Source: a virus. Taken from it: a stretch of DNA of 41,468 nt. The notes beneath the pieces are model-generated. The model was not told the origin of the DNA. It did no database searches and saw only the letters and a program-made list of their open reading frames with translations. A program made the position numbers and the translations under genes. Location: IMG/VR virus record IMGVR_UViG_3300045988_045315; one strand, written 5' to 3'. This document shows positions 1 through 16,757 of the stretch, one piece after another; the first letter of the stretch is position 1, and every line of letters starts with the position of its first letter.

Positions 1-63
1 CAAAACAGCACCGTAGCCGGGTGTCAAAACAGCACCGTAGCCGGGTGTCAAAACAGCACCGTA
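1..63. repeat. 24-bp tandem direct repeat CAAAACAGCACCGTAGCCGGGTGT (1-24, 25-48, partial 49-63); candidate origin iterons
   Basis: Two perfect units plus a 15-nt partial, read directly. The same units recur at 41414-41468 (terminal overlap). They are in frame with the wrapped initiator gene and encode QNSTVAGC repeats. Confidence 0.9.
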
Positions 64-471
64 AATAATAATATAGATAATAATATAGATAATGATAATA
101 TAAAACCCGGAAACGGATTTCCGGGACTTTTCATGGAAAAAGAAAAATCGGAAAATGCGCAAAAATTAAGAGGAACAACAGAACCTCATAAATGTTTGTT
201 TGCAAATAGTAGATTTTCAAAGTTTGAAGATTTTGAAAAATGCTTTGACAAACCGGAATTTGAACAAATAGATATTTTATACTATTATCATTCCGTCGCC
301 GATTGGAGCGCAAGCAAAGGCATAATGCAAAAAGATTGGATTGCACAAACGAGAAATTTTATACGAGGGGACAAAGAAAAAGGAAAATTGCATTTGAAAC
401 CGCAATACCAGCAAGGGAAAAAGGGTGTTGATATAAACGGTGCAATGGAATTTCTTAACAATGATTATTAA
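1..471 (+). CDS. Replication initiator / replisome-organizer-like protein, 3' portion (continues from 41123..41468 across the circular junction)
   Basis: Frame 1 is open from nt 1 to the TAA at 469-471. It is in phase with the ORF running off the window end once the 55-bp overlap is collapsed (combined about 253 aa). The ATG at 133 in the ORF track is internal. Confidence 0.7.
   Translation, partial: QNSTVAGCQNSTVAGCQNSTVNNNIDNNIDNDNIKPGNGFPGLFMEKEKSENAQKLRGTTEPHKCLFANSRFSKFEDFEKCFDKPEFEQIDILYYYHSVADWSASKGIMQKDWIAQTRNFIRGDKEKGKLHLKPQYQQGKKGVDINGAMEFLNNDY
64..105. repeat. AT-rich tract with 12-bp periodicity (ATAATAATATAG at 65-76 and 77-88, degenerate copy 89-100); candidate DNA-unwinding element
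   Basis: Only 3 G and no C in 42 nt. It immediately follows the 24-bp repeats. Confidence 0.8.
106..125. repeat. Inverted repeat CCCGGAAA-cgga-TTTCCGGG
   Basis: Perfect 8-bp arms with a 4-nt spacer, abutting the AT-rich tract. Confidence 0.8.
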
Positions 472-483
472 CCAATTCATGAT

Positions 484-1413
484 ATGAAAAATTTACCAAA
501 AAAAACAGATACGCAGAACGTTGCGTTGGCAATATATAATCCCAAGCCCGGAACAAAAGCTATTGAGATACGCCGACAAATGTTGCAATTGCCCGAGGTT
601 GCCAAATCGTTATCCGGGGTTGAAAAGTTTATTTTCGCCGCCTCAACGAAAATGCAAATTGCCGAGATTGACGATGGCACGTTGGTTGCGAAAACCGGGC
701 AAATGTTCCGGTTCATTGCAATGGACGTTGGATATATAATTCCGAACAATTCAGATGATTGGGCGTACACCTGTACCCGATTATTGGATATACTCAAAAA
801 ATACTATTCACATATGACATTGGCGGATATTAAGTTGGCATTTGAGTTGGCAACGACCGGAGAATTGGACGAATTTTTACCCCGTGACAGTCAAGGGAAC
901 CCGGATAAAAAGCATTACCAGCAATTCAACGCCGATTACTTTGCGAAGATATTGGGAGCATATAGGAAAAAACAGAATGAAGTAATTGGGAAAGCATATA
1001 AAGCGTTGCCGGAACCCGAAAGAGAAATGACGCCGGAGCAAAAGAGATATTACCACAACCGCAGGGAGGCAAGAAACAGAACTGTTTTTTTGCAATACAA
1101 ATACACTGGGAAAATATCGTTTGAATTTGGCGACGAAATGTTTTTGTATGACTGGCTGTTGAAATTTGGATTTGCTGACGAAGTGGAGGCAGACGAGGGC
1201 GACAGAAAACAAGCATTTGCAAAATATATGCACCGTGTGGCAATTGGATTGGTAAACCAATATACGGCGATCAACGTCCGGAAAAAGGGAATTGACAGTC
1301 CGGAAATTGATTTCATGGCGTACGAAGTTGCCCGGGAAAAGGAAATTCTACGAGCGTTTGACCGTATGATTGCAGAGGAAATACAGATTGATAACTATTT
1401 ATTTTTTATTTGA
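484..1413 (+). CDS. Hypothetical protein (309 aa), replication-module neighbour
   Basis: Long ORF packed tightly after the initiator gene. Its stop overlaps the next start. No motif recognised. Confidence 0.8.
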   Translation: MKNLPKKTDTQNVALAIYNPKPGTKAIEIRRQMLQLPEVAKSLSGVEKFIFAASTKMQIAEIDDGTLVAKTGQMFRFIAMDVGYIIPNNSDDWAYTCTRLLDILKKYYSHMTLADIKLAFELATTGELDEFLPRDSQGNPDKKHYQQFNADYFAKILGAYRKKQNEVIGKAYKALPEPEREMTPEQKRYYHNRREARNRTVFLQYKYTGKISFEFGDEMFLYDWLLKFGFADEVEADEGDRKQAFAKYMHRVAIGLVNQYTAINVRKKGIDSPEIDFMAYEVAREKEILRAFDRMIAEEIQIDNYLFFI

Positions 1414-2090
1414 ATATGTTAGTAGAACAATTTAATAAAATAACATTGATAAACGGGGATTGCATGGAGTATATGCAATCCCAAAAGAATAAATATTTTG
1501 ATTTAGCTATTGTTGACCCACCATACGGTATTGATGCGGGTAGTAATAAAAGAGCAGGCACTCAAACGGGTAAAAGTTTAGCTAAAAATAAAATATATCA
1601 TTCCGGGAATTGGGATAAAGATATACCACCTAAAGAATATTTTGAAGAATTGAAAAGAGTTACAAAAAATCAAATTATATGGGGCGGAAATTACTTTTTA
1701 GATTACCTTTCAAATACTCAATGTATGATTGTTTGGGACAAAGATAATGGAACAAATTATTATGCAGATTGTGAAATTGCGTGGACTTCATTTAATAGTG
1801 CAGTAAGAAAATTCCGTTGGCGTTGGCATGGATTTTTGCAGGAAGATAACAAAAATAAACAGCAAAGAATACACCCAACGGAAAAACCAATAGCCTTATA
1901 TGAATGGTTGCTGCAAAACTATGCACAACCGGGGCAAAAAATATTAGATACACACGGCGGAAGCATGAGCCATGCAATAGCGGCACATAGATTGGGTTTT
2001 GATTTGACAATCATAGAGAAAGACCCGGTTTATTATGCGCAAGCAAAGAAAAGATTAATTGAATTTCAAAGGAATTTATTTTTGTTTTAA
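1410..2090 (+). CDS. DNA methyltransferase, N6-adenine or N4-cytosine type (DPPY family, beta-class motif order)
   Basis: LINGDC near the N-terminus, catalytic motif IVDPPYGI, then C-terminal AdoMet region IHPTEKP...ILDTHGGSMSHAIAA. Appears intact. Confidence 0.9.
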   Translation: MNMLVEQFNKITLINGDCMEYMQSQKNKYFDLAIVDPPYGIDAGSNKRAGTQTGKSLAKNKIYHSGNWDKDIPPKEYFEELKRVTKNQIIWGGNYFLDYLSNTQCMIVWDKDNGTNYYADCEIAWTSFNSAVRKFRWRWHGFLQEDNKNKQQRIHPTEKPIALYEWLLQNYAQPGQKILDTHGGSMSHAIAAHRLGFDLTIIEKDPVYYAQAKKRLIEFQRNLFLF

Positions 2091-2091
2091 G

Positions 2092-2449
2092 ATGGAATTG
2101 AAAGTTTTCACGGCATTTAGCGGTTATGATAGTCAATGTATGGCATTAGATAGATTGGGCATTGATTATGAGTTGGTGGGATGGTCAGAAATAGATAAGT
2201 ATGCAATAATGGCGCATAATGCAGTTTTCCCGCAATATAAGAATAGAAACTTTGGCGATATATCAAAAATAGATTGGGGAAATGTACCTAATTTTGATTT
2301 GTTCACGTATTCGTTCCCATGTACCGACATATCAAGTGCGGGACAGCAAAAGGGATTGGAAGAGGGAAGCGGAACAATATAAAATGGCTGGTAATTCTAT
2401 TGTTGTAAGTGTGCTATATTATATATTTAAAAACCTATTTAATTTATAA
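2092..2449 (+). pseudogene. C5-cytosine DNA methyltransferase remnant with internal deletion and frame change
   Basis: Motif I FSGYDS and motif IV SFPCTDISSAG are followed by GSGTI-stop at 2380-2382. The +1 frame then reads QYKMAGNSIVVSVLYYIFKNLFNL-stop (2375-2449), a motif X-like C-terminus. Motifs V-IX and the target-recognition domain are absent. Confidence 0.75.
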
Positions 2450-2452
2450 TTT

Positions 2453-3007
2453 ATGAAGATTGATTGCATTATAGGAATTGACCCTGGCGCAAATGGGGGT
2501 ATTGTCAAATGGCGTCCAAATAAAAAAATAACGGCAATAAAAATGCCAAAGGATATGAATGAATTGTGTGATTATTTGGAATATCTGAAATCCATTTGTT
2601 CGCCGATTGTTTTTTTAGAGAAATTGAGCGTGCGCCCCGATGACATTGTGCCTGGTGCCGATGGTGTCAATATGGGCAAACTCTATCGCATCCAAAAAAT
2701 GCTTGCAAATTATGAACAGTTAAAAGCAACCATTGCGGTTTGCGATGTCCCGTTCGTCATGGTACACCCCATGAAGTGGCAAAACGAGTTGAAGTTGCGA
2801 GCCAAGACGACCCGGAAAAAGGAGGAAAAGAACGAGCGAAAGCGCAGATACAGAGAAATTGCCGGGAATTTATACCCAGAGTTGAAACCGACATTGTGGA
2901 ACGCTGATGCAACGTTGATAATGCACTTTGGAAGATACATTTTGCGCAACAATCCGGATTGGGTGCGAGAAAATTTGCCCGCCAAAATGTATGAACGCCT
3001 TTTTTAG
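2453..3007 (+). CDS. RuvC-like Holliday junction resolvase
   Basis: N-terminal IIGIDPGANGG, then an FLEK acidic residue and NADATLIMH near the C-terminus. This is the layout of RuvC-fold catalytic residues. Confidence 0.7.
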   Translation: MKIDCIIGIDPGANGGIVKWRPNKKITAIKMPKDMNELCDYLEYLKSICSPIVFLEKLSVRPDDIVPGADGVNMGKLYRIQKMLANYEQLKATIAVCDVPFVMVHPMKWQNELKLRAKTTRKKEEKNERKRRYREIAGNLYPELKPTLWNADATLIMHFGRYILRNNPDWVRENLPAKMYERLF

Positions 3008-3042
3008 CCTCGTAGAGCGATTTTATTTTATTAACCAATAAA

Positions 3043-3264
3043 ATGTATATGGAAACAGAAAAAGCCTTGCAAATCGAAAATTCGGATAAAATAACGTTGG
3101 AAGAGTTTGCAGAGTTGGTAAAACAGATGCGGCACAACCAACGCAGATATTTTGCACAGCGCAGACCGGAAATTTTGGAAACGTGTAAACGATTGGAACA
3201 TGAAGTTGATGCGATTGTTGCTAAACTGACAGACAAGCAGCTGTGTTTGTTTGATTTAGTATGA
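3043..3264 (+). CDS. Hypothetical protein (73 aa)
   Basis: ORF only; no motif recognised. Confidence 0.6.
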   Translation: MYMETEKALQIENSDKITLEEFAELVKQMRHNQRRYFAQRRPEILETCKRLEHEVDAIVAKLTDKQLCLFDLV

Positions 3265-3283
3265 TCCCGAGATTTTTTTTGCT

Positions 3284-3332
3284 AAAATAAAAGAAAAAAT
3301 ATTTGGTAATTAAAAAAATATACGTAACTTTG
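3284..3332 (+). promoter_or_regulatory. Early promoter block P1: AAAATAAAAG-N8-TTTGGTAATTAAAAA-N8-TAACTTTG
   Basis: TTTG (3302-3305) lies 19 nt upstream of TAACTTTG (3325-3332), fitting the Bacteroidota -33/-7 consensus. The 15-mer TTTGGTAATTAAAAA is identical at 37093 and 37835. Confidence 0.6.
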
Positions 3333-3391
3333 TGCCGTTGAGATACAACGAACCGACCGAGCGGGTCCTCGGTACAAAAAAGAAAATAAAA

Positions 3392-4265
3392 ATGAAAATA
3401 CTAAGTTTATTTGATGGGATTAGTTGTGGCATGGTGGCGTTACAGCGTGCCGGAATAGAAGTTGAAAGATATGATGCGTATGAGATAGAAAAAAGCGCAA
3501 TTGCAATATCTAAAAAGAATTATCCAAATATCTGTCATTGTGGAAATGTATACCGATGCGGACTTTTCAAAATACAATGATTTTGATTTGCTTATTGGTG
3601 GCAGTCCGTGTACGTATTGGAGTATTGCAAGAAAAGACAGAGAAACGACAAGTTCGGGTATCGGATTCAATTTGTTTATGCAGTTTGTAAAAGCAAAAGA
3701 ACAATCGGGATGCACATATTTTTTGTATGAAAACAACAATTCAATAAGCAAGGAAATTAAAGATGAAATTTCAAAATATTTGGGAGTTCAACCGATAATG
3801 ATAAATTCCGAACTTGTTTCGGCACAGAGTAGAAAACGTTGCTACTGGACTAATATACCAAATGTTACACAGCCAAAAGACAAAGGCATAAAATTAAAAG
3901 ATATTTTAGAGAATGGATGGGTTGACCGGGAAAAATCATTGTGTTTAACAAGAAGATATGCGGGCTTTACGGGTTCACAATCTTATTTGTGTAGGCGGTA
4001 TTTTGGTAAAAGCATGGGACAAGCTAAATTTGTTTCCGAAAAAAAATATATATCAGTAAAAAGTAAATGGAAAGAAAATAAGTATTTTGATTCTGACCAA
4101 ATCGAAATAGATAAACTTTCAATAACAGAAGTTGAACGGCTTCAAACTTTGCCCGATGGATATACTGAATGTGATGGCGTTTCTTATTCTCAAAGGGTAG
4201 AGGCTGTTGGAAACGGATGGACTGTTGACGTGATAGCGCACATATTAAGAGAACTGAAAAAATAA
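3392..4265 (+). pseudogene. C5-cytosine DNA methyltransferase interrupted by a frameshift near 3548-3554
   Basis: Frame A (3392-3580) carries motif I LFDGISCG and ...YPNICHCGNV. Frame B (from about 3546) carries DFDLLIGGSPC (IV), ENN (VI), QSRKR (VIII), RLQTLPDGY and GNGWTVDVI (X). The frames switch inside GTATACC. Confidence 0.75.
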
Positions 4266-4308
4266 TATTAACCGCCGGGGGCAACCTCGGCACAAACCGA
4301 GAGCAAAA

Positions 4309-5667
4309 ATGATAGTTAAGAAATTGGAATTAGTAAACTTTCAAGTAATTAAGGAGTTTAACGCAGATTTTGACGGTAATGTGTATTTCATTACTGGAGA
4401 CAACGAGTTGGGCAAATCGACCGTATTAAAAGCAATAGGGGCTTTATTGACTGGGAACCGTGATGCGGTATTAAGAAACGGCGAAAGCAAAGGTTTTGCA
4501 AAAATGATTGTCGGCGACGATGGCGAGGAATACGAGGTTGAATTGAGGTTTACAAAGGCAAATCCACGTGGCACGTTATCAATAAAATCAAAGGCAACTG
4601 GAATGAAAAGCGATAATGTTTCAATGTTGCAGAAGATTTTTGGTTATACAGATTTTGACGCCGTGGAATTTTCTCGTTGGTCGGAAACAGCCGAGGGACG
4701 CCGCAAACAAATTGAAGTTGTCAAGGCATTGTTGCCGGAAAATGTACGCAAAAGAATCGCCGAAATTGATACAGAGGTTGCTGGGTTGAAAACAGAGCGT
4801 ACAGGCGTCAACCGAGATTTGAAAACTTACAAATCCATATCAGACGCAGCCGGACAGGGATTGACAACAGAGGATTTGCAAACGCATGCCAAACCAAAGG
4901 ACATTACCGAACTAATGCGAGAACAGCAGGAAAACGCCCAATTGATTGAAAAAGCAAAAACCGTACGTTCAGCGTTAGCGCAGAGAACGCAGCAGTTGGA
5001 AGACATTCCGGCACGTATGGAAGCCGCCAAAGATTCATACGAAAAAGCGATTGAGGCGGCAAAAACGGCAATGGCGATGGCGGAACAAACCTACAAAGAA
5101 ACCGTTGCACAGATTGATGCAGAAAAAGCCGATTTTGAGAAACGCAAAGCAAATGCGGAAAATTGGTTGGCGAAGTATGAGGAAAACAACCCGGAAAAGT
5201 TAGATACAGCCGAGCAATTGAAGTTGGCTGAAGAATTTAATAAAAAGGTTGCAAAAGTTGCCTATTATCTGACAACGAAAAAGCAAGCAGACGAAAAGAG
5301 AGCAGAAGCCGAAAAGATGGATTCCGATATTGCCAAATTGTCGGCAGAGCGTGAAAAGCTAATTGCGACGTCAAAATTGCCAATTTCCGGGCTATCATTT
5401 ACGGACGATGGGTTGGTATTGAATGATGTGCCATTTGTTGCTGGAAAGGTTTCAGATTCGCAGATTATGGAAGTTGCCGCAAAACTTATCATTGCCAGCA
5501 ACCCAACCGTCAAAGTGTTCCGCATAGCGAGGGGCGAAAGTTTAGGCGAAAAGAGGTTGCAAGCAATTATTGATATTGCCCAAAAGAACGGTTTTCAAGG
5601 ATTCATTGAAGAAGTGAAGAGAGGGCAAGACGATTTGATTATTGAAGAATATACAGAAAACGAGTAG
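4309..5667 (+). CDS. SMC/RecN/SbcC-like ATPase with central coiled coil
   Basis: N-terminal KLELVNFQ...ITGDNELGKST Walker A. The middle is long, Ala/Glu/Lys-rich and heptad-like. The C-terminal globular part ends ...GFQGFIEEV. Confidence 0.6.
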   Translation: MIVKKLELVNFQVIKEFNADFDGNVYFITGDNELGKSTVLKAIGALLTGNRDAVLRNGESKGFAKMIVGDDGEEYEVELRFTKANPRGTLSIKSKATGMKSDNVSMLQKIFGYTDFDAVEFSRWSETAEGRRKQIEVVKALLPENVRKRIAEIDTEVAGLKTERTGVNRDLKTYKSISDAAGQGLTTEDLQTHAKPKDITELMREQQENAQLIEKAKTVRSALAQRTQQLEDIPARMEAAKDSYEKAIEAAKTAMAMAEQTYKETVAQIDAEKADFEKRKANAENWLAKYEENNPEKLDTAEQLKLAEEFNKKVAKVAYYLTTKKQADEKRAEAEKMDSDIAKLSAEREKLIATSKLPISGLSFTDDGLVLNDVPFVAGKVSDSQIMEVAAKLIIASNPTVKVFRIARGESLGEKRLQAIIDIAQKNGFQGFIEEVKRGQDDLIIEEYTENE

Positions 5668-5732
5668 TTGACCGGGGGGGGGCGGGTTCCCGTTCTCCCT
5701 TAATAGCAAAACAATGCAAAAGTTAATTGACG

Positions 5733-6164
5733 ATGAGAAAGCGAGAAATAACGGCAACGGGCAGAATCAACAACAAAGGCGGTTTGCAAATGTATATGGG
5801 CGAATTGAATCAGTTCTTTTCCATGCACAAAGGGAGCCGCATAATTGCACGTTTTATCGTTGCGTCTCCCGGCTCGTCGGAGGCGTTGAAAGGGTATTAT
5901 TTTAATTGCGTGGTACCAACGTTCCGGTCGGGTATATGGGAAGCTGGGGAGCGTCTGACAGAGGAACAAACAGAACGCCGATTACGTGAGCTGTCCCCGG
6001 TTATGTATGAGCAGACCCCGGATATTAATACGGGAAAATATGAAACTCGTTTGCGGACAATTGCAGAGTTGTGCAATGCGGAATTGATAGAACATATTGA
6101 GCATTTGAAACAGATTGCAGCCGAGGAATACAATACATATATTGATGACCCACGCAGCATTTGA
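5733..6164 (+). CDS. Hypothetical protein (143 aa)
   Basis: First ATG of the ORF; the track start at 5727 is TTG. No motif recognised. Confidence 0.7.
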   Translation: MRKREITATGRINNKGGLQMYMGELNQFFSMHKGSRIIARFIVASPGSSEALKGYYFNCVVPTFRSGIWEAGERLTEEQTERRLRELSPVMYEQTPDINTGKYETRLRTIAELCNAELIEHIEHLKQIAAEEYNTYIDDPRSI

Positions 6165-6200
6165 CAAAAGAAAGCAAAAAATAAAAAATCAGAAAATAAT

Positions 6201-7001
6201 ATGAAAAAAGGAACATTGACAGACAGCAAAGGAAATGAGATGAACGACATTTTGAAAGATGTTTTGACGTTTGATTGCGAAACAACTGGATTGCCAGCCA
6301 GGGGTGCAAAATGGGACGTTGATTTTGCAGAGTTCCCGAACATTGTGCAACTGGCATGGTCGGTAAACGAAAAGGAACGTTCATATATCATACAGCCGGA
6401 GGGGTGGGAAATTCCGGAAGCCTCAATTGAGGTACACGGAATTACAGCAGAGAGAGCAAACGCCGAGGGCGTCCCATTTGCTGACATTATAGACGAATTT
6501 TTGGATGATTGCAAAAATGCTCGTCTATTGGTCGGGCATAATATCTACTTTGACACGTCAATCGTAAAAGCAATGATATTGCGCATTATGGGGCGTGAAT
6601 ATTACGACGCAAAAGCGGATGACGCATTGTTCAAGGGCAAACGAATTGATACGATGATGAAGACAATTAGATTTGTCGGTGCGTTGTATGCAAATGGACG
6701 TCCGGGAAAATTTCCAAAATTGGAGGAGCTTTATAACAAGTGTTTTCCCGGCGAAACATTCCCAGCGCATGATGCTTTGGAGGATGTAAGGGCGTGCAAA
6801 CGATGTATTCCCGTATTGGTTGAAAATGGCATTATTGAAATGAAGCCAAAGGAATATCCGGCGGAGCAATTGAAGTTGGGACAAGAACCTGCAAAAACAA
6901 AGATGGTAAAACGTACTATTGAGTTCCACGACCCAACTCCAGTTGTTGGTGCGGAGCTGGAAAGTGAAGTGAAACAGATGTTGAACGAAACGGAATTTTA
7001 A
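6201..7001 (+). CDS. DnaQ-like (DEDDh) 3'-5' exonuclease
   Basis: Exo I FDCETTG, Exo II VGHNIYFD and Exo III AHDALEDV, in the canonical order. Confidence 0.85.
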   Translation: MKKGTLTDSKGNEMNDILKDVLTFDCETTGLPARGAKWDVDFAEFPNIVQLAWSVNEKERSYIIQPEGWEIPEASIEVHGITAERANAEGVPFADIIDEFLDDCKNARLLVGHNIYFDTSIVKAMILRIMGREYYDAKADDALFKGKRIDTMMKTIRFVGALYANGRPGKFPKLEELYNKCFPGETFPAHDALEDVRACKRCIPVLVENGIIEMKPKEYPAEQLKLGQEPAKTKMVKRTIEFHDPTPVVGAELESEVKQMLNETEF

Positions 7002-7003
7002 GC

Positions 7004-7135
7004 ATGGAAGAAAAGAAATTTTGTATTGATTGCGTTGATTACCCGGTTTGTATGTTGTCCGGGCGATGCGCTGACGATGAACCGTGTGACGATTACAAAG
7101 AAGATACCGACCCGGCGGAACCGGGAAACGATTAA
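7004..7135 (+). CDS. Small Cys-rich acidic ORF (43 aa)
   Basis: ATG lies 3 nt after the preceding stop. Sequence is MEEKKFCIDCVDYPVCMLSGRCADDEPCDDY... It fills an otherwise non-coding gap and is below the ORF-track cutoff. Confidence 0.4.
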   Translation: MEEKKFCIDCVDYPVCMLSGRCADDEPCDDYKEDTDPAEPGND

Positions 7136-7147
7136 ATATTTATTCTT

Positions 7148-7807
7148 ATGAGCGAAAAAAAAACAAATGTCATGCCGATCCCTACGAAAGAAAAGTTTTC
7201 ACTCTCAAAAGTGAAATTGTTGAAAGATGGCGGATTAGATGTTCACTATGAGGTGACGGAAGTTGTCGGAAACGAGAGCTACACAAACAAGTATCACGTA
7301 TTGAGTGCAAAGGACATACACCCGGATTTGCGAAAATTGTTCAAAGACCTTTGCCCAATCATGGGGCGTGTGTTCAATATCACGTCTTTTAAAAGCATGA
7401 TTGCAACCCCGGATTTCAAGGCGACGAAAAAACAAATAGAAATTGCCGATTCTTTTGCAAACGAATGTTTGGGAAACATTGAAGTAAGGGGCGTTTCTTT
7501 GTCCGGGCAAGATGATAATGTAGGCGTCGTTCTCACTGGATTGTTTTCTGTATCAAACAATCAGAAAACCGCAATCAACACCCCACGTATGAAATATGCC
7601 GTTGAAACGTTCGGTTTTGAGGAAGAGTTGGAAAACATTGTGTGCGACATTGAAAACGAGGTTTACGAATTTCTGTTTAATGGGAAGAGGGCGCAAATGG
7701 ATTTGTTCGGGGCTGATGGGGAGCTGAACCCGTTAGTTTACGGAAATGATGCAGACGACGAAAATGATATGTTCCCGGAGATGGGAGACCCAGCAGACGA
7801 TATATAA
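7148..7807 (+). CDS. Hypothetical protein (219 aa) with acidic C-terminal tail
   Basis: ORF in the recombination module. The tail DADDENDMFPEMGDPADDI resembles SSB-type interaction tails. No family recognised. Confidence 0.75.
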   Translation: MSEKKTNVMPIPTKEKFSLSKVKLLKDGGLDVHYEVTEVVGNESYTNKYHVLSAKDIHPDLRKLFKDLCPIMGRVFNITSFKSMIATPDFKATKKQIEIADSFANECLGNIEVRGVSLSGQDDNVGVVLTGLFSVSNNQKTAINTPRMKYAVETFGFEEELENIVCDIENEVYEFLFNGKRAQMDLFGADGELNPLVYGNDADDENDMFPEMGDPADDI

Positions 7808-8253
7808 TGGAGCCAATATTGTTGACCGAGCGTTACGAATATGAATATTGCGTCGCTCGTGGCTACGAGCCGTTATTGGATATTCGTAACTTTCGGTTAG
7901 ATATTCGGTTGCGGGTTGAGTTACAATGGGAATTGTTCGGGCATTGCGTTTTAGGACGTGGCGACATTCCCGTTGCCAACCAACGGTTTTTCCGGTGGGT
8001 TTGGGAGCATAAGCCACACAGATGCGAGGAAACGTTACGACCTTTGCACAATTTTTCGGCAACGTATTGTTCCCATATTTTACCCCGTGGAGCTTATCCG
8101 GAAATGGCGCATGACCCTCGGAATATCAATATACTTTGCTTTGAGATGCACAACCGTTGGGAGAATGGCGACCGTGAGAAAATGCGAATATATCCGGGTA
8201 ACGTCCGGATCATTGAATTGCTTAAAAACGAATATAGAAGTTTGAGAATATGA
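7807..8253 (+). CDS. HNH-like nuclease (tentative)
   Basis: CSHILPRGAYPEMAHDPRNINILCFEMHNRWE fits an H...N...H layout with flanking Cys. It overlaps the upstream stop (TAATG). Confidence 0.45.
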   Translation: MEPILLTERYEYEYCVARGYEPLLDIRNFRLDIRLRVELQWELFGHCVLGRGDIPVANQRFFRWVWEHKPHRCEETLRPLHNFSATYCSHILPRGAYPEMAHDPRNINILCFEMHNRWENGDREKMRIYPGNVRIIELLKNEYRSLRI

Positions 8254-8597
8254 GGACGAAAAAAAGGATAGTAGATTACGGGGCGATTTCCCGCCGCTCA
8301 ATCAAAAGTGATTTTAGACGAGTACAAACATACTCGGAAAGGGAGAAACGCCCACAAATTGAAAATCCGCCCGAAATAAATGCAGAAAGACGAGTTTTGT
8401 TTGTTGGCGAAAATTCAAGCTATTATAAACTGCGTTCTTTCATTGTTGGTAAATTGGTTCGACTGGTTCAAGAATCAAGCGTCGGCGGCTGGGTTTGCGA
8501 GTTCGTACATGACGACGACCGTAAAGCGATAAATAATGCCGCTGGGTGGTCGGACTGTAAGAAACAATATTTATTAGACTGCGTAAAATTCAAGTGA
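8250..8597 (+). CDS. Hypothetical protein (115 aa)
   Basis: ORF with overlapping start and stop relative to its neighbours. Confidence 0.7.
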   Translation: MRTKKRIVDYGAISRRSIKSDFRRVQTYSEREKRPQIENPPEINAERRVLFVGENSSYYKLRSFIVGKLVRLVQESSVGGWVCEFVHDDDRKAINNAAGWSDCKKQYLLDCVKFK

Positions 8598-8707
8598 TGA
8601 AAATAAAACCAAAAACCGGATATAAAATTGCGTTATACACGTTCGTGACGTTGACGGTTGCGTCTTATATGTGGGCGGTGTATAGTATCATTAGGTGGCT
8701 AATCTAA
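8597..8707 (+). CDS. Small membrane ORF (36 aa)
   Basis: ATGA overlap with the upstream stop. One hydrophobic segment, ALYTFVTLTVASYMWAVYSII. Below the ORF-track cutoff. Confidence 0.35.
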   Translation: MKIKPKTGYKIALYTFVTLTVASYMWAVYSIIRWLI

Positions 8708-8718
8708 AACATTAAATT

Positions 8719-9126
8719 ATGAGTGTAAACAAGGTTATTTTGATGGGGTATACCGGAAAAGACCCCGACGTCAAGACGTTTGATAATGGCGGAGTTGTCG
8801 CACAATTCACGTTGGCAACAACCAAAAGAGGATTCAAGACAAAAGACGGCAAAGAAATTCCGGAACGTACCGAGTGGCACAATATAGTATTGTCAAATGG
8901 ATTGGCGAAGATAGCCAGCCAGTGCGTTAAAAAGGGCGATAAATTATACATTGAGGGGGAATTGAGAACCCGCAGTTATGATAACAACGGCGTTAAACAT
9001 TTTATTTCCGAGGTTTACGGGTATAATATGGAGATGTTGACGCCAAGAAAAGACGGACAGAGCGTGGGACGGCAAGGAGCAGTTCCAACGCCACCAACGC
9101 CAAATCCGGATGATTTGCCATTTTGA
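8719..9126 (+). CDS. ssb: Single-stranded DNA-binding protein
   Basis: OB-fold signature NKVILMGYTGKDPD...TEWHNIV...KGDKLYIEGELRTRSY, and a C-terminal acidic tip PDDLPF. Confidence 0.9.
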   Translation: MSVNKVILMGYTGKDPDVKTFDNGGVVAQFTLATTKRGFKTKDGKEIPERTEWHNIVLSNGLAKIASQCVKKGDKLYIEGELRTRSYDNNGVKHFISEVYGYNMEMLTPRKDGQSVGRQGAVPTPPTPNPDDLPF

Positions 9127-9131
9127 AAATA

Positions 9132-9305
9132 ATGTTTGAAATTGAAATGAAAATCCCAGCGGGTTCCCGTCTGATTGGCACCAGGACAAAAGGAAATAAG
9201 GTTATTGCGGTTTGTGAGTTTATACAGCCGAAACAACCGGAGGAGCCAAGACGACCGATTGGTTATGCAGTTAGCCCGCTGGGAATTATAAAAAAAGAAA
9301 AATAA
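9132..9305 (+). CDS. Hypothetical protein (57 aa)
   Basis: First ATG of the ORF; the track start at 9123 is TTG. Confidence 0.5.
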   Translation: MFEIEMKIPAGSRLIGTRTKGNKVIAVCEFIQPKQPEEPRRPIGYAVSPLGIIKKEK

Positions 9306-9306
9306 T

Positions 9307-9816
9307 ATGCAGTACAGCAATAAGGATTACAACCCGGGAAAGCACGACCGATGGCATGCTCTGACTGTAAAGCAGCCGTACGCTAATTGCTTGGTAACGG
9401 AGGCTTACAAGGATGAAAACGGTATTGTTTACGGGGAAAAGTCAATTGAAGTTAGGAGCAAAAACACGTCATACCGTGGCGACGTGTTGATATGTTCCGC
9501 AGCGTCCCCGGCTTATCCGGGAATGGAAAGCGGCGTCACGTTGGGATTGGTCGAGTTGTACGACGTTAAGCCGATAAAAGAGTTCACGCCGGAGGATTGG
9601 GAAAACACCCGGATTCCAAAGGAAAAGAGGGCGAAAATAACAAAGGGTTTCGGATGGATGATGCGCAACCCAAGACGTGTTATTGAAATGCCGATAAAGG
9701 GGCAGTTGGGTATTTACAACTTAGTCTATACAAAGGGCGAAATACTCCAGTACTTCCGGAAAATGAAAATTGACAAAAAGGGCTGGGGACAGATAAAAAA
9801 ACAGATAGAGAAATGA
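9307..9816 (+). CDS. ASCH (PUA-like) domain protein
   Basis: ALTVKQPYANCLV...KSIEVRSKNTSYRGDVLICSA matches the ASCH N-terminal beta-barrel pattern. Confidence 0.65.
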   Translation: MQYSNKDYNPGKHDRWHALTVKQPYANCLVTEAYKDENGIVYGEKSIEVRSKNTSYRGDVLICSAASPAYPGMESGVTLGLVELYDVKPIKEFTPEDWENTRIPKEKRAKITKGFGWMMRNPRRVIEMPIKGQLGIYNLVYTKGEILQYFRKMKIDKKGWGQIKKQIEK

Positions 9817-10010
9817 AAACAATTGGATTTATTGGATGTATCGAGTTCCATTTGTATATACAAAGTCTGTGGAAGTATAAGCAGTTCTATTTGATGCCCG
9901 GAGTTATGGTTGAGGGCATAAAAGGACATGGCTTTTATTTTGAAATTAAATTTTTATGCCTTGCCGTTGGCGTCCGGCTGGTATGTATAAAAGCCCAAAA
10001 AAATCATTAA
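9813..10010 (+). CDS. Hypothetical protein (65 aa)
   Basis: ATGA overlap with the upstream gene. Hydrophobic. Confidence 0.5.
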   Translation: MKTIGFIGCIEFHLYIQSLWKYKQFYLMPGVMVEGIKGHGFYFEIKFLCLAVGVRLVCIKAQKNH

Positions 10011-10028
10011 CTTTGTGATGAATAAAAA

Positions 10029-10238
10029 ATGTTAGCAATGAAAGAAATAACAAAGATATTGCCATTGAACGAGGCGGCAAAGATACAGACAGCCGCAGGC
10101 GAATATGATTGCACAATTACAGAACTGGCGGTAATAGGCGGAGGAAAAGCGAGAATTGCAATTTCCGGGACGGAGGAAAATTTGGAATCCTTGCTTAATT
10201 CAATGGATGATGAGGATAAAGAAACCGCAACCGTTTGA
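10029..10238 (+). CDS. Hypothetical acidic protein (69 aa)
   Basis: ORF only. Confidence 0.6.
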   Translation: MLAMKEITKILPLNEAAKIQTAAGEYDCTITELAVIGGGKARIAISGTEENLESLLNSMDDEDKETATV

Positions 10239-10500
10239 ACCGGGGAGGCAATATAATCCCGGCGAACGTTCTGTTTACCGAGATTCTATTGTCGTTGCAG
10301 AAACATGGCTTACCTCAACAAAACGAATTGTTGAAAAGTTCGGAATGTCTCTGTATAGATGCGGATGTTGTGCAATCAAGGATGAGGATTGCCCGGCTGT
10401 TGGGTTGAGATGCCATTGCACCAGCCGAACAGATGGAAAGACGATATATTTTAGATTTGTACGTTTTATTAAAAATAGCAGAAATGGAAAAAAATATTGA
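10207..10500 (+). CDS. Hypothetical Cys-rich protein (97 aa)
   Basis: Only open frame covering 10239-10483. Internal ATG-ATG at 10207/10210. Contains YRCGCCAIKDEDCPAVGLRCHC. Its stop overlaps the next start. Confidence 0.45.
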   Translation: MMRIKKPQPFEPGRQYNPGERSVYRDSIVVAETWLTSTKRIVEKFGMSLYRCGCCAIKDEDCPAVGLRCHCTSRTDGKTIYFRFVRFIKNSRNGKKY

Positions 10501-11575
10501 TTTAATCAAAGGCAGATTAACCCCGTTTGATGTGGAAACAATTTTGATGATAAAGAGTGTGACCGGGCATGAACCGGAAATTACAGAAAAGGCAGAATCG
10601 TTTGAGCTGAAAATGTATGTTAAGGATAAAGACGAATATATTATAAAAGCCGCAATTGATGCGGTCATTGGTCGTTATGGATTGAGAATGCGAGCCGTTA
10701 AACATATTTGGGAACAAATGTTTTTGCGTGGGGCGACATTCTTTGTTGAGTACGAAAAAGGTGCGGAAAATTTGCCGGACGAAGTACATGCGGATAAGAG
10801 AGAGCCGAACGAGAGAGCCGGACATTTGTATTGCCGTAGATTGTTAGAAGTTAGAGCCGTTATTGTATCTCGTGATAATATTGAAAGACTGATTGATTTT
10901 ACCGGAGGCGGAACAATGGAGATACCAAGAAAGCCGGGCGGAATTGCTCAATATTCTTTCGTAACAGAAAATGGCGTTATTATGAGCGTTCCGGAAAGAT
11001 GGGCGGTTGTAAGGTTTCCGGATGGACGATTTGGGAAAATGGATTACAAAACATTTGTAGAAGAATTTGAAGAAAAGGAAGAAAACAACCCAGTATTAAG
11101 CTTTAGCGAAAAAAGGTTGTTTGCAAAAATGAATAATCTTTTCGGGAAGAACATACAACGCAGATTTTCCAAATTAACTGAGGAATACCACGAATTGTTT
11201 GTTGCTGCTGATGATATGTTGGTAAATGGGATAATACCGGACGATATGACGGAAATAATAGACGAATTGGCAGACGTGAACGCCGTTTTGTTCCATATGG
11301 CAGCATTGTTCGGGTATAGCCAAAAGGAATTGTTGGAAATGGCATACACAAAAATTGCAAGCAGAGAGAAAACCCCGGAGTTCATGCGGAAACACCCGCA
11401 CAAGGAACCGGAAAGTCCAGTTTGTGGGAATTGCAGTAACTTTGAAAATGAAGATGCGGAGGGCGGCGGATTTTGCAACGAGCAAAACAGAATGAGGCAT
11501 TGCAGTTGTATTGCGTGCAATCAATGGCAGGAAAGACAGACCGCCGAGGAATACAAACAATTTGAACAACGTTAA
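10484..11575 (+). CDS. MazG-like nucleotide pyrophosphohydrolase domain protein with unknown N-terminal half and Cys-rich C-terminus
   Basis: The region KLTEEYHELF...IIDELADVNAVLFHMAALFGYSQKELLEMAYTKIASR fits the MazG four-helix EExxE / DExxD pattern. The C-terminus is CGNCSNF...FCNE...HCSCIAC. The start is taken at the MEKNIDL ATG. Confidence 0.5.
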   Translation: MEKNIDLIKGRLTPFDVETILMIKSVTGHEPEITEKAESFELKMYVKDKDEYIIKAAIDAVIGRYGLRMRAVKHIWEQMFLRGATFFVEYEKGAENLPDEVHADKREPNERAGHLYCRRLLEVRAVIVSRDNIERLIDFTGGGTMEIPRKPGGIAQYSFVTENGVIMSVPERWAVVRFPDGRFGKMDYKTFVEEFEEKEENNPVLSFSEKRLFAKMNNLFGKNIQRRFSKLTEEYHELFVAADDMLVNGIIPDDMTEIIDELADVNAVLFHMAALFGYSQKELLEMAYTKIASREKTPEFMRKHPHKEPESPVCGNCSNFENEDAEGGGFCNEQNRMRHCSCIACNQWQERQTAEEYKQFEQR

Positions 11576-11587
11576 TACAATGAAATA

Positions 11588-11767
11588 ATGGCAAGCGTCA
11601 AGGAGTTGAAAGAAACAATTGAAAAAGCGATAATTGAATTTTCAAAGGAAAACGAAGTTGACAGTATGAACGTTCATGTTACAATACAGAAGAAAGTGAA
11701 ATGTAATATGGTAGGTTCTGTTTTGGATAGTTGGTTAGAGGCAGAAACAGAAATAAACATAAAATAA
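11588..11767 (+). CDS. Hypothetical protein (59 aa)
   Basis: Fills the gap between neighbouring genes. Below the ORF-track cutoff. Confidence 0.45.
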   Translation: MASVKELKETIEKAIIEFSKENEVDSMNVHVTIQKKVKCNMVGSVLDSWLEAETEINIK

Positions 11768-11768
11768 T

Positions 11769-12287
11769 ATGAAAAAGGATTTTATCAAAGAATTAGCCGA
11801 GTTGATTAATAAACACAGCTTGGAAAAAGAAATGAGAGATACCCCGGACTATATTTTAGCCCAAGTTTGCGTTGGTGCGATGGCGGTATTTTCGGAAGCA
11901 ATCGCCTGTCGTGATGAATGGCACGGATTCAGAAAGACAGACGAAAAGAACGCAGCGGACGCAAAAAGGGATGATTGCAATATTTGCAAAGACCGTTTCA
12001 AATGTGCCGATTACATAAGAACGCAGCCAATTTCAAGTTTGATTCAGCGTTGCAAGACCACAAAAGACAGAGAGGAAAAAGCGGCGATTGCCGGATTGCT
12101 TAAACAGATAAATGCCGATGCGTCCGTGGAGCCGGAAACGGATATTCCGGAGGCTGTGAAAGAAGTTGCCGAGATGTTGGGAAAGGTTTTGGGCGCACGT
12201 GTTGAGATACGACGCATTGAGGTACCCGAAAAGAAACGCAGAATCAGAAAGAAGCCAAGAAAGGAGGGTGGAAATGAAACCAGTTGA
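11769..12287 (+). CDS. Hypothetical protein (172 aa), basic C-terminus
   Basis: ORF only. Confidence 0.7.
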   Translation: MKKDFIKELAELINKHSLEKEMRDTPDYILAQVCVGAMAVFSEAIACRDEWHGFRKTDEKNAADAKRDDCNICKDRFKCADYIRTQPISSLIQRCKTTKDREEKAAIAGLLKQINADASVEPETDIPEAVKEVAEMLGKVLGARVEIRRIEVPEKKRRIRKKPRKEGGNETS

Positions 12288-12583
12288 AGAACAACAAAGA
12301 GTGATTGCAATGTTGGATAAGCTGAAAGAGCCAACGGCGGTTTGACAAGCAAAAAACGCCCCAGAATTTCAACTGAGGCTTTGCCGCATATAGACGGAAA
12401 GTAAAACGAGCTAAAATTAGCCCCATACAACGATGATAATTCAAAAGACGATAAAAGTATCAAGGAACAAACAAAACTCGCTCAAAACGAAAATTACCCG
12501 AAAATAACGAGCAAGGGGAAAGCGATGTTTTTGAGAGAGAAGCAAAGTAAAATGGCTTTACCATTATAAAAGGTTTGAAAAAA

Positions 12584-13267
12584 ATGGAAGCGAGTAAAAG
12601 ACAAAGGGGTAGACGCCCGAAAATGTGCAAACGTACAAAAGACCAAAGGGAGTTTGATTTGGCTTTTTGTTCAAATCTGTTTTTGCGTGGGTACACGTAT
12701 AGGGAGATTTCGGAAAGGCTGAATGAGGAAAATGCACGGCGTGGCGTGGGGTATACCATCACAAAACAAATGGTATACTGGGATATGCAACAGTTGCTAA
12801 TTGAGTGGAAACGTGAACGAATGGAAAATATAGACGATTACGTGACGCAAGAATTGCGAAAGTTGGATAAAATGGAGGTCGAATTGTGGGAGGCATGGGA
12901 ACGTTCAAAGACCGGGAAATTGAGAGAAAAAAGCAGACGAAATGCAAAGCCCCGGAAAGTGCTGGAAGATGGCGACAATCCGGAATATTATGGTTATGAG
13001 GAAGCCACCACGGAAACGTCCGCCGGAAATCCCCGATTTTTGGATTTGCTTTTAAACGTGCAGCAACGCCGGGCAAAGATGTTGGGATTTGATGCGCCGA
13101 TAAAAGTGGATATACCGGGGTTGAGTGAAAATATGAATAGCGATGCGCCGAAATATGATGTCGCCGCAATACCGGAAGATTTATTGTTTGCAGTCGCAGA
13201 CAAATTGCAATCGGCGGAGTACAAACGAGCGTTAGCAGAAAAGGGGGTAACGGATGGCGACACGTAA
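12584..13267 (+). CDS. terS: Terminase small subunit (putative)
   Basis: Sits immediately upstream of terL. It has a basic N-terminus, an HTH-like segment GYTYREISERLNEE, a coiled middle and ...QQRRAKMLGFDAP. First ATG; the track start at 12575 is TTG. Confidence 0.65.
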   Translation: MEASKRQRGRRPKMCKRTKDQREFDLAFCSNLFLRGYTYREISERLNEENARRGVGYTITKQMVYWDMQQLLIEWKRERMENIDDYVTQELRKLDKMEVELWEAWERSKTGKLREKSRRNAKPRKVLEDGDNPEYYGYEEATTETSAGNPRFLDLLLNVQQRRAKMLGFDAPIKVDIPGLSENMNSDAPKYDVAAIPEDLLFAVADKLQSAEYKRALAEKGVTDGDT

Positions 13268-13475
13268 GAAAACGGCAAGTCCGGCAAAGGAACTGGAGTA
13301 TAAGAATGAAATATGCGACAATTGCGAGTTGGCGACATGGGTAACGCATTTGCACCAGCATATAGATCACTGCGGGAAACCTATTTGTTTGACGTGTCCG
13401 AACAAAACGTATTTAATTGTACGAGGTTGTAAGGCGTGCCGATATTTTGTAAAGAGAAAGGAGAAAAAGCAATGA
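13254..13475 (+). CDS. Small Cys-rich (zinc-ribbon-like) protein
   Basis: CDNCE...HCGKPICLTC...GCKACRYF. It overlaps both the terS stop and the terL start. Confidence 0.55.
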   Translation: MATRKKTASPAKELEYKNEICDNCELATWVTHLHQHIDHCGKPICLTCPNKTYLIVRGCKACRYFVKRKEKKQ

Positions 13476-15028: not shown

Positions 15029-15078
15029 CAAAATATTTTATGATTGGAGGTGTTTTTGCTAAAAAGTGTTAATATTGT

Positions 15079-15124
15079 GCGTTTTGTTGCATATCTGACA
15101 CAAGGGCATTATCTTTGTGTCAGA
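15079..15124 (+). promoter_or_regulatory. Promoter with overlapping inverted-repeat operator (TCTGACACAA-N11-TTGTGTCAGA)
   Basis: The -7 box TATCTTTG lies at 15110-15117, with gTTG at 15086-15089 (20-nt spacer). A perfect 10-bp inverted repeat (15094-15103 / 15115-15124) straddles the -7 box. Confidence 0.55.
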
Positions 15125-15179
15125 AATAAAAACCAATAATTAACTAAACCGACCCGAGCAGGCGTTACTGTCAGAAAGA

Positions 15180-15386: not shown

Positions 15387-15410
15387 TCTGACATAAAATT
15401 AATTGACAAA

Positions 15411-15656: not shown

Positions 15657-15748
15657 CAAGACCACACCACACCGAAAGGGACTTTGGAAGAACTCACGAC
15701 CTTACTGCAATAAGGTTAGAGCGAAAAATTTATCAATTACTTTCACGG

Positions 15749-15775
15749 GGTTGCATTCTCTGCAACCTTTTTTTT
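15749..15775 (+). terminator. Intrinsic terminator
   Basis: GGTTGCA-ttctc-TGCAACC followed by T8. Confidence 0.75.
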
Positions 15776-15798
15776 GTTAAACATATCGTTGATTTTGT

Positions 15799-16756: not shown

Positions 16757-16757
16757 A

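What the first reader, a model, noticed from the sequence alone, without database searches (positions are those of the whole stretch)
1..125. Lambda-O-style replication origin embedded in the initiator gene (iterons, AT-rich unwinding tract, palindrome)
The gene starting at 41123 encodes an N-terminal winged-HTH initiator-like domain. Its linker region is made of 2.6 copies of a 24-bp direct repeat. A 42-nt tract with only 3 G/C and 12-bp periodicity follows, and then an 8-bp-arm palindrome. All of this stays in frame and encodes QNSTVAGC x2.6 followed by NNNIDNNIDNDNI.

Phage lambda ori has the same organisation: iterons plus an AT-rich region inside gene O, between the DNA-binding and C-terminal domains. 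Here it would mark ori and imply that the protein binds its own coding sequence.
Basis: partly seen in the sequence, partly recalled or inferred. Interest (0 to 1): 0.7.

Follow-up and report, generated by a model that had tools for sequence, protein, structure and literature searches.

The report
Phage replication origin inside initiator gene
A gut Bacteroidales phage most likely carries its replication origin (binding-site repeats, an easily melted AT-rich stretch and a small palindrome) inside the gene for the protein that binds it; this layout is already known from phage lambda and some plasmids, so it is an ordinary but well-supported case.

Summary
The window is a circular assembly whose first and last 55 nt are identical. 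With that overlap removed, gene 41123..41413 + 1..471 encodes a 253-aa protein.

Its parts are:
- a winged-helix N-domain (Pfam HTH_36);
- a linker predicted to be disordered;
- a small helical C-domain with no recognised relatives.

The linker DNA contains:
- 2.6 identical 24-bp repeats (1-63);
- the least stable 40-bp duplex stretch of the genome (64-105);
- an 8-bp-arm palindrome (106-125).

Comparative data support an origin of replication:
- Close relatives differ in length by 8-aa steps, which is repeat copy-number variation.
- Eleven N-domain clusters share this C-domain, and all but one have their own repeat unit at the same place.
- Several of those units have 22/23/25-bp periods, so successive copies are read in different frames. 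That points to selection on the DNA, not the peptide.
- Relatives with another C-domain keep the N-domain, repeats and AT tract.

No helicase, primase or polymerase gene was found, so replication probably relies on host enzymes.

The closest analogues are lambda O/ori-lambda, pSK41 RepA_N, the pPR9 HTH_36 hybrid and SPP1 gene 38/oriL.

It is a new member of a known kind, unannotated in cultured Bacteroides phages. The copy number is unresolved because the assembly breaks inside the repeat. Binding and origin firing have not been tested.

The parts
41123..41413 (+). 5' part of the initiator gene, aa 1-97: the N-terminal winged-helix DNA-binding domain.
   Evidence: Pfam HTH_36 E 5.2e-7, 29.8 bits against a cut-off of 25. 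DnaD_N scores 22.6 bits, below its cut-off. PHROG replication initiation, O-like and DnaD-like families match. The AF2 model has helices and a beta wing at residues 8-97 with pLDDT 70-87. Foldseek finds MarR/TFE winged helices, DnaD-N (2v79) and RepA_N initiators (4pql, 4pt7, 5kbj).
41414..41468 (.). Assembly overlap: an exact duplicate of window 1-55. It is not extra sequence.
   Evidence: The first 55 nt equal the last 55 nt. The ORF is intact only when the overlap is removed.
1..63 (+). Putative iterons: 2.6 identical copies of CAAAACAGCACCGTAGCCGGGTGT. The conserved 15-bp cores lie at 1-15, 25-39 and 49-63. They encode linker residues QNSTVAGC x2.6.
   Evidence: TRF. The core occurs nowhere else in the genome: 5 hits including the overlap copies, against 0.21 expected. 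The core is unchanged in 64 copies from 16 loci, while the 9-bp spacer varies. Copy number ranges from 1.6 to 6.6 or more in relatives.
64..105 (+). AT-rich tract and putative DNA unwinding element: (AATAATATAGAT)-like 12-mers x2.8, encoding NNNIDNNIDNDNIK.
   Evidence: 3 G/C in 42 nt. It is the least stable 30/40-bp window in the genome. In relatives the residues change between D, N, Y, F, I and S, but the codons stay AT-rich. The exact 27-mer recurs in initiator genes of unrelated phages.
106..125 (.). Palindrome CCCGGAAA-CGGA-TTTCCGGG, encoding PGNGFPG.
   Evidence: It scores as terminator-like on both strands. Relatives have CCCGAAAA/TTTTCGGG, which is one G:C to A:T double change and is not statistically significant. 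Sequence-unrelated palindromes occupy the same place in other C-domain subtypes: 45 of 54 unique sequences against about 7 in shuffles.
128..140 (.). Small second palindrome TTTTC-ATG-GAAAA, encoding (L)FME. The equivalent in other subtypes is TTGTTCC-C-GGAACAA.
   Evidence: The evidence is weak, and the LF dipeptide is also conserved at the protein level.
126..471 (+). Remainder of the linker and the C-terminal helical domain (aa 140-253). The stop codon is at 469-471.
   Evidence: The AF2 C-domain-only model has pLDDT 74 and pTM 0.63. There is no Pfam hit, no PDB sequence hit and no PDB fold neighbour. The domain is conserved across 11 N-domain clusters.
484..1413 (+). Conserved 309-aa gene next to the initiator gene. 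It is a candidate partner, for example a helicase-loading factor, but its function is unknown.
   Evidence: It matches phrog_34953 only, with no Pfam or PDB hit. It is syntenic in BKO1-3, PD491P1 and all family-A loci.

Best explanation
Positions 1-125, with the flanking gene 41123..471, are the phage's theta-type replication origin, embedded in the gene of its own initiator.

Proposed mechanism:

1. The N-terminal winged-helix domain (aa 1-97) binds the 15-bp cores CAAAAC(A/G)GCACCGTA. These are repeated every 24 bp, about two helical turns, so bound proteins would sit on one face of the DNA.
2. The resulting nucleoprotein complex melts the directly adjoining AT tract (64-105).
3. The C-terminal domain then brings in host replication proteins, alone or together with the conserved 309-aa neighbour. 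This step is needed because no helicase, primase or polymerase gene was detected in the annotated replication/recombination region.
4. The peptide encoded by the origin DNA is only a flexible linker.
5. The palindrome at 106-125 is a third origin element that travels with the C-domain module. Its role is open; it could be a binding site, a cruciform or a loading/priming signal.

Shown here: the anatomy, the domain structure, the co-variation of repeats with the N-domain, and the copy-number variation.

Inferred: binding, melting, recruitment of host proteins, and firing of the origin.
For: - Anatomy.
- Initiator-type N-domain.
- Disordered linker: residues 97-156 have pLDDT 25-44.
- Copy-number variation: close homologues are 245, 253, 261, 269, 277 and 285 aa long, which is steps of one 24-bp unit.
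- Module exchange, first direction: proteins with the same N-domain but an unrelated C-domain keep the repeats and the AT tract (P0083, P0100, L012-L017).
- Module exchange, second direction: 71 ORFs share the C-domain and fall into 11 N-domain clusters. Each cluster has its own repeat unit at the same position, and 64 of the 71 have a TRF-detectable iteron-type repeat.
- Selection on DNA rather than peptide: several of these units have periods of 22, 23 or 25/47 bp, so successive copies are translated in different frames. Many units carry dyad symmetry, for example GGTTGGA-AAA-TCCAACC.
- AT tract: its residues vary chemically but keep AT-rich codons.
- Specificity: the iteron core is unique to this site in the genome.
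- Dependence on the host: no replicative helicase, primase or polymerase was found. The genome does encode SSB, an exonuclease and a resolvase.
- Precedents with the same layout: lambda (PMC7466680), pSK41 RepA_N and the pPR9 HTH_36 hybrid (PMC5703833), and SPP1 oriL within gene 38 (PMC6316719).
Against: - There is no experimental evidence of binding or of replication starting here.
- GC skew is uninformative.
- The synonymous-site test on the iteron core is weak. Only 12 of 24 four-fold sites vary in the N-domain of the same loci, so the relatives are too close to give power.
- Family-A iterons lack the conserved dyad symmetry seen in lambda and in sister families.
- Palindrome covariation amounts to one event and is not significant: 179 of 500 shuffles score as high.
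- No DnaA boxes are present.
- The C-domain has no recognisable relative, so the recruitment step is pure inference.
- Not every ORF was screened for replication genes.
Confidence: 0.8

Rival explanations
1. The repeats are only a slippage-prone, low-complexity linker with no function as DNA. The AT tract and palindrome are coincidental.
For: The region encodes a segment predicted to be disordered. The copies are 100% identical, as recent slippage would give. Copy number varies freely.
Against: All but one of the 11 N-domain clusters have their own repeat at the same place. Sister families use 22/23/25-bp periods, which give non-repeating peptides. The 15-bp core is constant across 64 copies while the spacer drifts. 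Repeats are followed by an AT-rich tract in family A, its distant N-domain relatives and most C-domain-sharing ORFs.
Confidence: 0.04
2. The repeats are binding sites for the protein but act as operators, or as copy-control or exclusion sites, while replication starts elsewhere.
For: Iterons in plasmids also act in autoregulation and handcuffing. That point rests on general knowledge and was not tested here. Nothing in the sequence proves firing at this site.
Against: The sites lie in the middle of the gene, not at a promoter. They abut the least stable duplex of the genome. No other iteron-like array was found: the core occurs nowhere else, and the only comparable AT tract (2414-2454) has no repeats. 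Experimentally proven origins have the same layout (PMC7466680, PMC5703833, PMC6316719).
Confidence: 0.07
3. This rival concerns the palindrome at 106-125 only. It would be an intrinsic terminator or attenuator inside the gene, acting at the RNA level, and not an origin element.
For: It scores as terminator-like on both strands, with a GC-rich stem followed by ACTTTTC. Relatives have hairpins followed by ATTTTTC or TTTTTTTC.
Against: Many equivalent palindromes in other subtypes have 1-2-nt centres or no T run, for example ACCGCCG-T-CGGCGGT, TTGTTCC-C-GGAACAA and GAAAATCCG-GA-CGGATTTTC. Those suit duplex DNA sites or cruciforms better than RNA hairpins. The T run also encodes a conserved LF/FF dipeptide. 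A terminator in the middle of an essential ORF would produce mRNA with no stop codon.
Confidence: 0.12
4. The feature is an assembly artefact, or marks the physical genome end (pac or cos site, or a terminal repeat), because the contig ends fall there.
For: The window breaks inside the repeat with a 55-nt overlap. At least 8 related contigs also end in the repeat or the AT tract.
Against: Many independent contigs span the region internally (L001-L006, L012, L013, L016, L017). Cultured phages BKO1-3, PD491P1 and FCV-1 carry the same architecture far from their record ends. The contig ends fall at different points within the array, as repeat collapse would give. The terminase region, inferred from ORF size and the homology, lies more than 12 kb away.
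Confidence: 0.03

Closest known systems
Phage lambda O protein and ori-lambda (lambdoid phages, including Stx phages)
   Same: The origin lies in the middle of the initiator gene. Iterons are followed directly by a roughly 40-bp AT-rich stretch and then a palindrome, and they begin right after the N-terminal DNA-binding domain (PMC7466680). Iteron number varies between relatives and adds residues to the protein: 4 in lambda against 6 in Stx phages (PMC7466680). Replication depends on the host replisome.
   Different: No detectable sequence membership: there is no Phage_rep_O hit, and hhalign against lambda O gives probability 0.12. The window's iterons are exact 24-bp tandem copies without conserved dyad symmetry. 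The C-domain and the neighbouring gene are unrelated to O-C and P. The host is Bacteroidales.
RepA_N plasmid initiators (pSK41) and the pPR9 hybrid initiator with a pfam13730 N-domain
   Same: A winged-helix N-domain binds repeats located centrally within its own gene. The origin-encoded central segment is a dispensable linker. The C-domain is host-specific and recruits a host replication protein. In pPR9 the N-domain (HTH_36) and the origin were exchanged together as a module of about 500 bp while the C-domain was kept (PMC5703833). The loci here show the same modular pattern. Foldseek lists the RepA_N structures 4pql, 4pt7 and 5kbj among the N-domain neighbours.
   Different: There is no RepA_N Pfam hit. 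The C-domain fold has no PDB neighbour, so it is not shown to be DnaD-like. This is a phage, not a plasmid, and its hosts are Bacteroidota rather than Firmicutes.
Bacillus phage SPP1 gp38 (G38P) and oriL
   Same: Direct repeats plus an AT-rich unwinding element lie within the gene of the origin-binding protein (PMC6316719).
   Different: SPP1 encodes its own helicase loader and DnaB-type helicase and has a second origin, oriR. No helicase gene and no second repeat array were found here.

Membership tests
Iteron-type theta origin embedded in the initiator gene (functional class) | At least two direct repeats of about 17-24 bp, spaced at about two helical turns. | tested here: met
   24-bp unit x2.6. 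Relatives have 1.6 to 6.6 or more copies. Sister families have 21-25-bp units.
Iteron-type theta origin embedded in the initiator gene (functional class) | An AT-rich unwinding element directly beside the repeats. | tested here: met
   Positions 64-105 have 3 G/C in 42 nt and form the least stable 40-bp window in the genome.
Iteron-type theta origin embedded in the initiator gene (functional class) | The repeats are specific to the DNA-binding domain of the encoded initiator. | tested here: met
   The repeat unit follows the N-domain cluster, not the C-domain: 11 clusters among 71 ORFs, and the reciprocal C-domain swap. This is co-variation, not a binding assay.
Iteron-type theta origin embedded in the initiator gene (functional class) | The initiator binds the repeats and replication starts there. 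| not testable with these tools
   This needs EMSA or footprinting and a replication assay.
Lambda O family (Pfam Phage_rep_O) | Sequence match to the O N-terminal domain. | tested here: not met
   No Phage_rep_O hit at E <= 0.01. hhalign of A2 against lambda O gives probability 0.12. There are only PHROG 'O-like' family hits, with E from 3e-8 to 2.5e-4.
Lambda O family (Pfam Phage_rep_O) | Dyad-symmetric iterons. | tested here: not met
   The family-A core has only CACC-N7-GGTG, and this is not kept in variant copies. Sister families do have dyads.
HTH_36 (PF13730) winged-helix proteins | Score above the Pfam gathering cut-off. | tested here: met
   29.8 bits against a cut-off of 25, E 5.2e-7. 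Most homologues carry the precomputed PF13730 domain.
DnaD-like / RepA_N initiators | Sequence or fold match of the N-domain. | tested here: inconclusive
   DnaD_N scores 22.6 bits, below its cut-off of 27. Foldseek gives 2v79 at E 3.5e-3 and 4pql at E 6.9e-3, among many generic winged helices.
DnaD-like / RepA_N initiators | A DnaD-like C-terminal domain. | tested here: not met
   The C-domain model (pLDDT 74) has no PDB neighbour with E < 1 and no Pfam or PDB sequence hit.

The most novel reading that the evidence does not exclude
The AT tract may be more than an easily melted stretch. It could be a specific, conserved origin element. The same (AATAATATAGAT)n 12-mer array sits directly after the iterons in winged-helix initiator genes that otherwise differ in N-domain, iterons and C-domain. 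These genes come from phages or prophages of Bacteroidota, Bacillota and Actinomycetota. It could be a sequence-specific single-strand binding or loading site, comparable in role to DnaA-trios or the oriC 13-mers. Because it is shared, it could also be the crossover point that lets N-domain+iteron modules and palindrome+C-domain modules recombine.
Probability: 0.15. Interest if true: 0.6.

Novelty: new member of a known kind. Interest (0 to 1): 0.4.

Why it matters
It assigns an origin and an initiator to a common group of gut Bacteroidales siphoviruses. In the three cultured relatives inspected (two Bacteroidales phages and Flavobacterium phage FCV-1) this gene is annotated only as 'hypothetical protein'.

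It explains why assemblies of these phages repeatedly break at this point.

It offers a large natural set of paired N-domain and iteron variants for studying DNA-recognition specificity. It also suggests candidate minimal replicons for building Bacteroides genetic tools.

It does not reveal a new principle. The same layout is established for lambda, SPP1 and RepA_N plasmids.

Tried and rejected
- GC skew: monotonic because all genes lie on one strand, so uninformative.
- DnaA boxes: 7 near-matches against 12 expected, none near the site.
- Four-fold-site test for DNA-level constraint on the iteron core: the relatives are too close and the test is underpowered.
- Covariation count on the 106-125 hairpin: one double change, not significant.
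- hhalign of the family profile against lambda O: no match.
- PDB sequence searches with the whole family and with the C-domain: only weak MarR/SlyA hits for the N-domain and nothing for the C-domain.
- Pfam on the C-domain: nothing credible.
- Foldseek on a C-domain-only model: no neighbour.
- PDB search with the 309-aa neighbour: nothing.
- Does the neighbour gene change with the C-domain type, as it would for a lambda O/P-like pair? It does not; the same roughly 310-aa gene follows both C-domain types.
- Scan of bacterial genomes for the 27-mer, looking for a link to host oriC: only 2 of 10 hits were initiator genes, both in prophages, and none was an oriC.
- The second AT-rich tract at 2414-2454 as an alternative origin: it has no repeats.
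- Literature search for iterons or origins in Bacteroides phages: no papers found.

Full report
**Observation**

The window is a circularly permuted assembly. Its first 55 nt are identical to its last 55 nt. Joining the ends naively puts a stop codon after 137 aa. Removing the overlap gives an intact 253-aa ORF, 41123..41413 + 1..471. Homologues of the same length exist at 94-98% identity.

- TRF finds a 24-bp unit x2.6 at 1-63 with 100% matches. This is the top-scoring tandem repeat in the window. It also finds a 12-bp unit x2.8 at 65-97.
- Positions 64-105 contain 3 G/C in 42 nt.
- By nearest-neighbour energy, 62-102 is the least stable 30- and 40-bp duplex stretch of the whole genome.
- The palindrome CCCGGAAA-CGGA-TTTCCGGG lies at 106-125. 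As single-stranded DNA it folds at -10.7 kcal/mol, z = -3.25.

An 8-bp-arm palindrome is not rare by itself. The genome has 7 distinct ones (9 overlapping calls), against about 3.8 in shuffles.

The contig break falls exactly at the first full repeat, and at least 8 related viral contigs end inside the same repeat or AT tract. The copy number of 2.6 is therefore a lower bound left by the assembler.

**The protein**

- Residues 18-72 match Pfam HTH_36 (29.8 bits, cut-off 25). DnaD_N matches below its cut-off.
- PHROG families annotated as replication initiation, O-like and DnaD-like helicase loader match the N-terminal half.
- An AlphaFold model built on 26 homologues gives a winged helix at residues 8-97 (pLDDT 70-87), an unstructured stretch at 97-156 (pLDDT 25-44), and a helical C-domain. 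The unstructured stretch covers exactly the repeats, the AT tract and the palindrome.
- Foldseek neighbours of the N-domain are generic winged helices. They include the DnaD N-domain (2v79) and RepA_N plasmid initiators (4pql, 4pt7, 5kbj).
- The C-domain has no Pfam hit, no PDB sequence hit and no PDB fold neighbour.

**Genome context**

This is a Bacteroidales siphovirus. It is related to Bacteroides phage BKO1-3, Parabacteroides phages PD491P1 and PDS1, and Alistipes phage AS73P1.

Genes around the initiator encode:
- a PD-(D/E)XK exonuclease;
- a Gp3-like protein;
- a conserved 309-aa protein of unknown function;
- two methyltransferases;
- a Holliday-junction resolvase;
- an SMC-like ATPase;
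- a DnaQ-like exonuclease;
- SSB.

No helicase, primase or polymerase was found. The phage presumably uses the host replisome, as lambda does.

**Comparative evidence, the core of the case**

1. Close homologues are 245, 253, 261, 269, 277 and 285 aa long. The differences are whole QN(S/G)TVAG(C/Y) units, that is 24-bp steps.
2. Across 16 loci and 64 repeat copies the 15-bp core CAAAAC(A/G)GCACCGTA is constant while the 6-9-bp spacer varies. In one locus the unit is 21 bp.
3. Proteins 92-95% identical in the N-domain but with an unrelated C-domain keep the repeats and the AT tract. Similarity ends just after the tract (P0083, P0100, L012-L017).
4. A scan with the C-domain recovered 71 full ORFs that fall into 11 N-domain clusters. 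Ten of the eleven clusters carry their own tandem repeat at the same place, just 5' of an AT-rich tract. Examples are GGTTGGAAAATCCAACCACCCC (22 or 25 bp), GCGTTGCTGAAATAGCAACGGGG (22-24 bp), TACCCCTAAACGAAAGTTTAGGGC (24 bp), GTCCGAAAACGGACCGGCAAACA (23 bp), AAATCCCGTTGAAGCGGAAAA (21 bp) and TACGGAAAAACCGGA (15/30 bp).
5. Related N-domain clusters have related repeats.
6. Periods of 22, 23 and 25 bp mean that successive copies are read in different frames. In cultured phage BKO1-3 the copies encode WLENPTTP, VEKSNHP, GCEIPPP and so on. What is conserved is the DNA, not the peptide.
7. Many of these units are dyad-symmetric, as lambda's iterons are.
8. In the AT tract, the residues in relatives switch among D, N, Y, F, I and S, but always with AT-rich codons. 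This again indicates a constraint on the DNA.
9. The window's iteron core occurs nowhere else in the genome.
10. The only other comparably AT-rich tract (2414-2454) is intergenic and has no repeats.

**The palindrome**

Within the window's own subfamily the stem differs by one G:C to A:T double change, and two sequences carry a mismatch at that pair. This is not significant: 179 of 500 shuffles score as high.

A broader pattern is more telling. A perfect palindrome with G:C pairs lies in the 95 nt after the AT tract in 45 of 54 unique sequences, against about 7 in shuffles. These sequences are related to one another, so the contrast is overstated. Even so, at least six unrelated palindrome sequences occur, and each follows a C-domain subtype:
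- CCCGRAAA..TTTYCGGG;
- (A)CCGCCG-N-CGGCGG(T);
- TTGTTCC-C-GGAACAA;
- in the alternative C-domain family, AGATGCT-AA-AGCATCT and GAAAATCCG-GA-CGGATTTTC.

So the iterons travel with the N-domain, the palindrome travels with the C-domain, and the AT tract is the junction.

The window's palindrome also scores as terminator-like on both strands. Many of the equivalent palindromes have 1-2-nt centres and no T run, which fits a duplex-DNA site or a cruciform better than an RNA hairpin. Its function stays open.

**Comparison with known systems**

- **Lambda.** Its annotated record shows four iterons at 39034-39118, then an AT-rich stretch, then an imperfect palindrome, all inside gene O and starting after the N-terminal DNA-binding domain. 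Iteron number differs between lambda and Stx phages and changes the length of O (PMC7466680).
- **pSK41.** Its RepA_N protein binds four Rep boxes located centrally within rep. The origin-encoded central domain is a dispensable linker, and the C-domain binds host DnaG (PMC5703833).
- **pPR9.** Its N-domain (pfam13730, the family found here) and its origin were exchanged as one module while the C-domain was kept (PMC5703833).
- **SPP1.** Its oriL consists of direct repeats plus an AT-rich unwinding element within gene 38 (PMC6316719).

The window works like these systems. It is not shown to be a member of the lambda O family: there is no Phage_rep_O hit, and hhalign against lambda O gives probability 0.12. 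Nor is it shown to be a member of RepA_N.

**Verdict**

Binding, melting and origin firing remain untested. The element is a new member of a known kind. It has not been annotated in the cultured relatives inspected, where the gene is labelled 'hypothetical protein', and no paper on iterons or origins in Bacteroides phages was found.

One point goes beyond the expected. The exact 12-mer array (AATAATATAGAT)n recurs after the iterons of otherwise unrelated winged-helix initiators from three bacterial phyla. It could be a specific origin element or a recombination junction. This idea remains speculative.

Noticed in passing
window 1-55 and 41414-41468: The first and last 55 nt are identical, which is an assembly overlap of a circular contig. 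The break lies inside the 24-bp repeat. At least 8 related viral contigs also end inside the repeat or the AT tract, so this locus is a recurrent assembly breakpoint and copy numbers are unreliable.
   Followed up: yes
window 484-1413: A conserved 309-aa gene sits immediately after the initiator gene. It matches phrog_34953 only, with no Pfam or PDB match. It is syntenic in BKO1-3, PD491P1 and all family-A loci, and it follows both C-domain types. It is a candidate replication partner of unknown function.
   Followed up: partly
window 2092-2449: This is a remnant of a C5 DNA methyltransferase. It matches aa 1-95 and aa 350-374 (in another frame) of the intact 376-aa enzyme in locus L012, so about 255 aa have been lost by an internal deletion.
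   Followed up: partly
L141 (Atopobium fossor), L143 (Coprobacillaceae), L028-L047 (viral contigs): The exact 27-mer AATAATATAGATAATAATATAGATAAT lies just after short direct repeats inside winged-helix initiator genes of phages or prophages from three phyla. The remaining hits are low-complexity N/I/D-rich coding regions in AT-rich genomes and giant-virus bins.
   Followed up: partly
L051 2780-2910 (Bacteroides phage BKO1-3 gp13) and loci of N-domain cluster 2: The iterons GGTTGGAAAATCCAACCACCCC repeat with alternating 22- and 25-bp spacing inside the ORF. Each copy is therefore translated in a different frame, and all three frames of the unit must stay free of stop codons.
   Followed up: yes
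protein P0012 (337 aa): This natural variant carries a duplication of the AT tract, the palindrome and the first ~35 residues of the C-domain, that is, a duplicated right half of the putative origin. An assembly error cannot be excluded.
   Followed up: no
window 2414-2454: This is the second least stable duplex stretch of the genome. It lies just upstream of the Holliday-junction resolvase gene and has no flanking repeats. It is probably a promoter or other intergenic region.
   Followed up: partly
window 18696-18740 and 31881-31921: Two other short tandem repeats lie inside structural-region ORFs: an 18-bp unit x2.5 and a 12/13-bp unit x3.3. They were not examined.
   Followed up: no
window 106-125 and equivalents in related loci: Most of the post-AT palindromes contain CCGG or CCCGG, and the phage encodes cytosine-C5 and N6/N4 methyltransferases at 1410-2090 and 3501-4265. 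A link between methylation and the origin is conceivable but was not tested.
   Followed up: no
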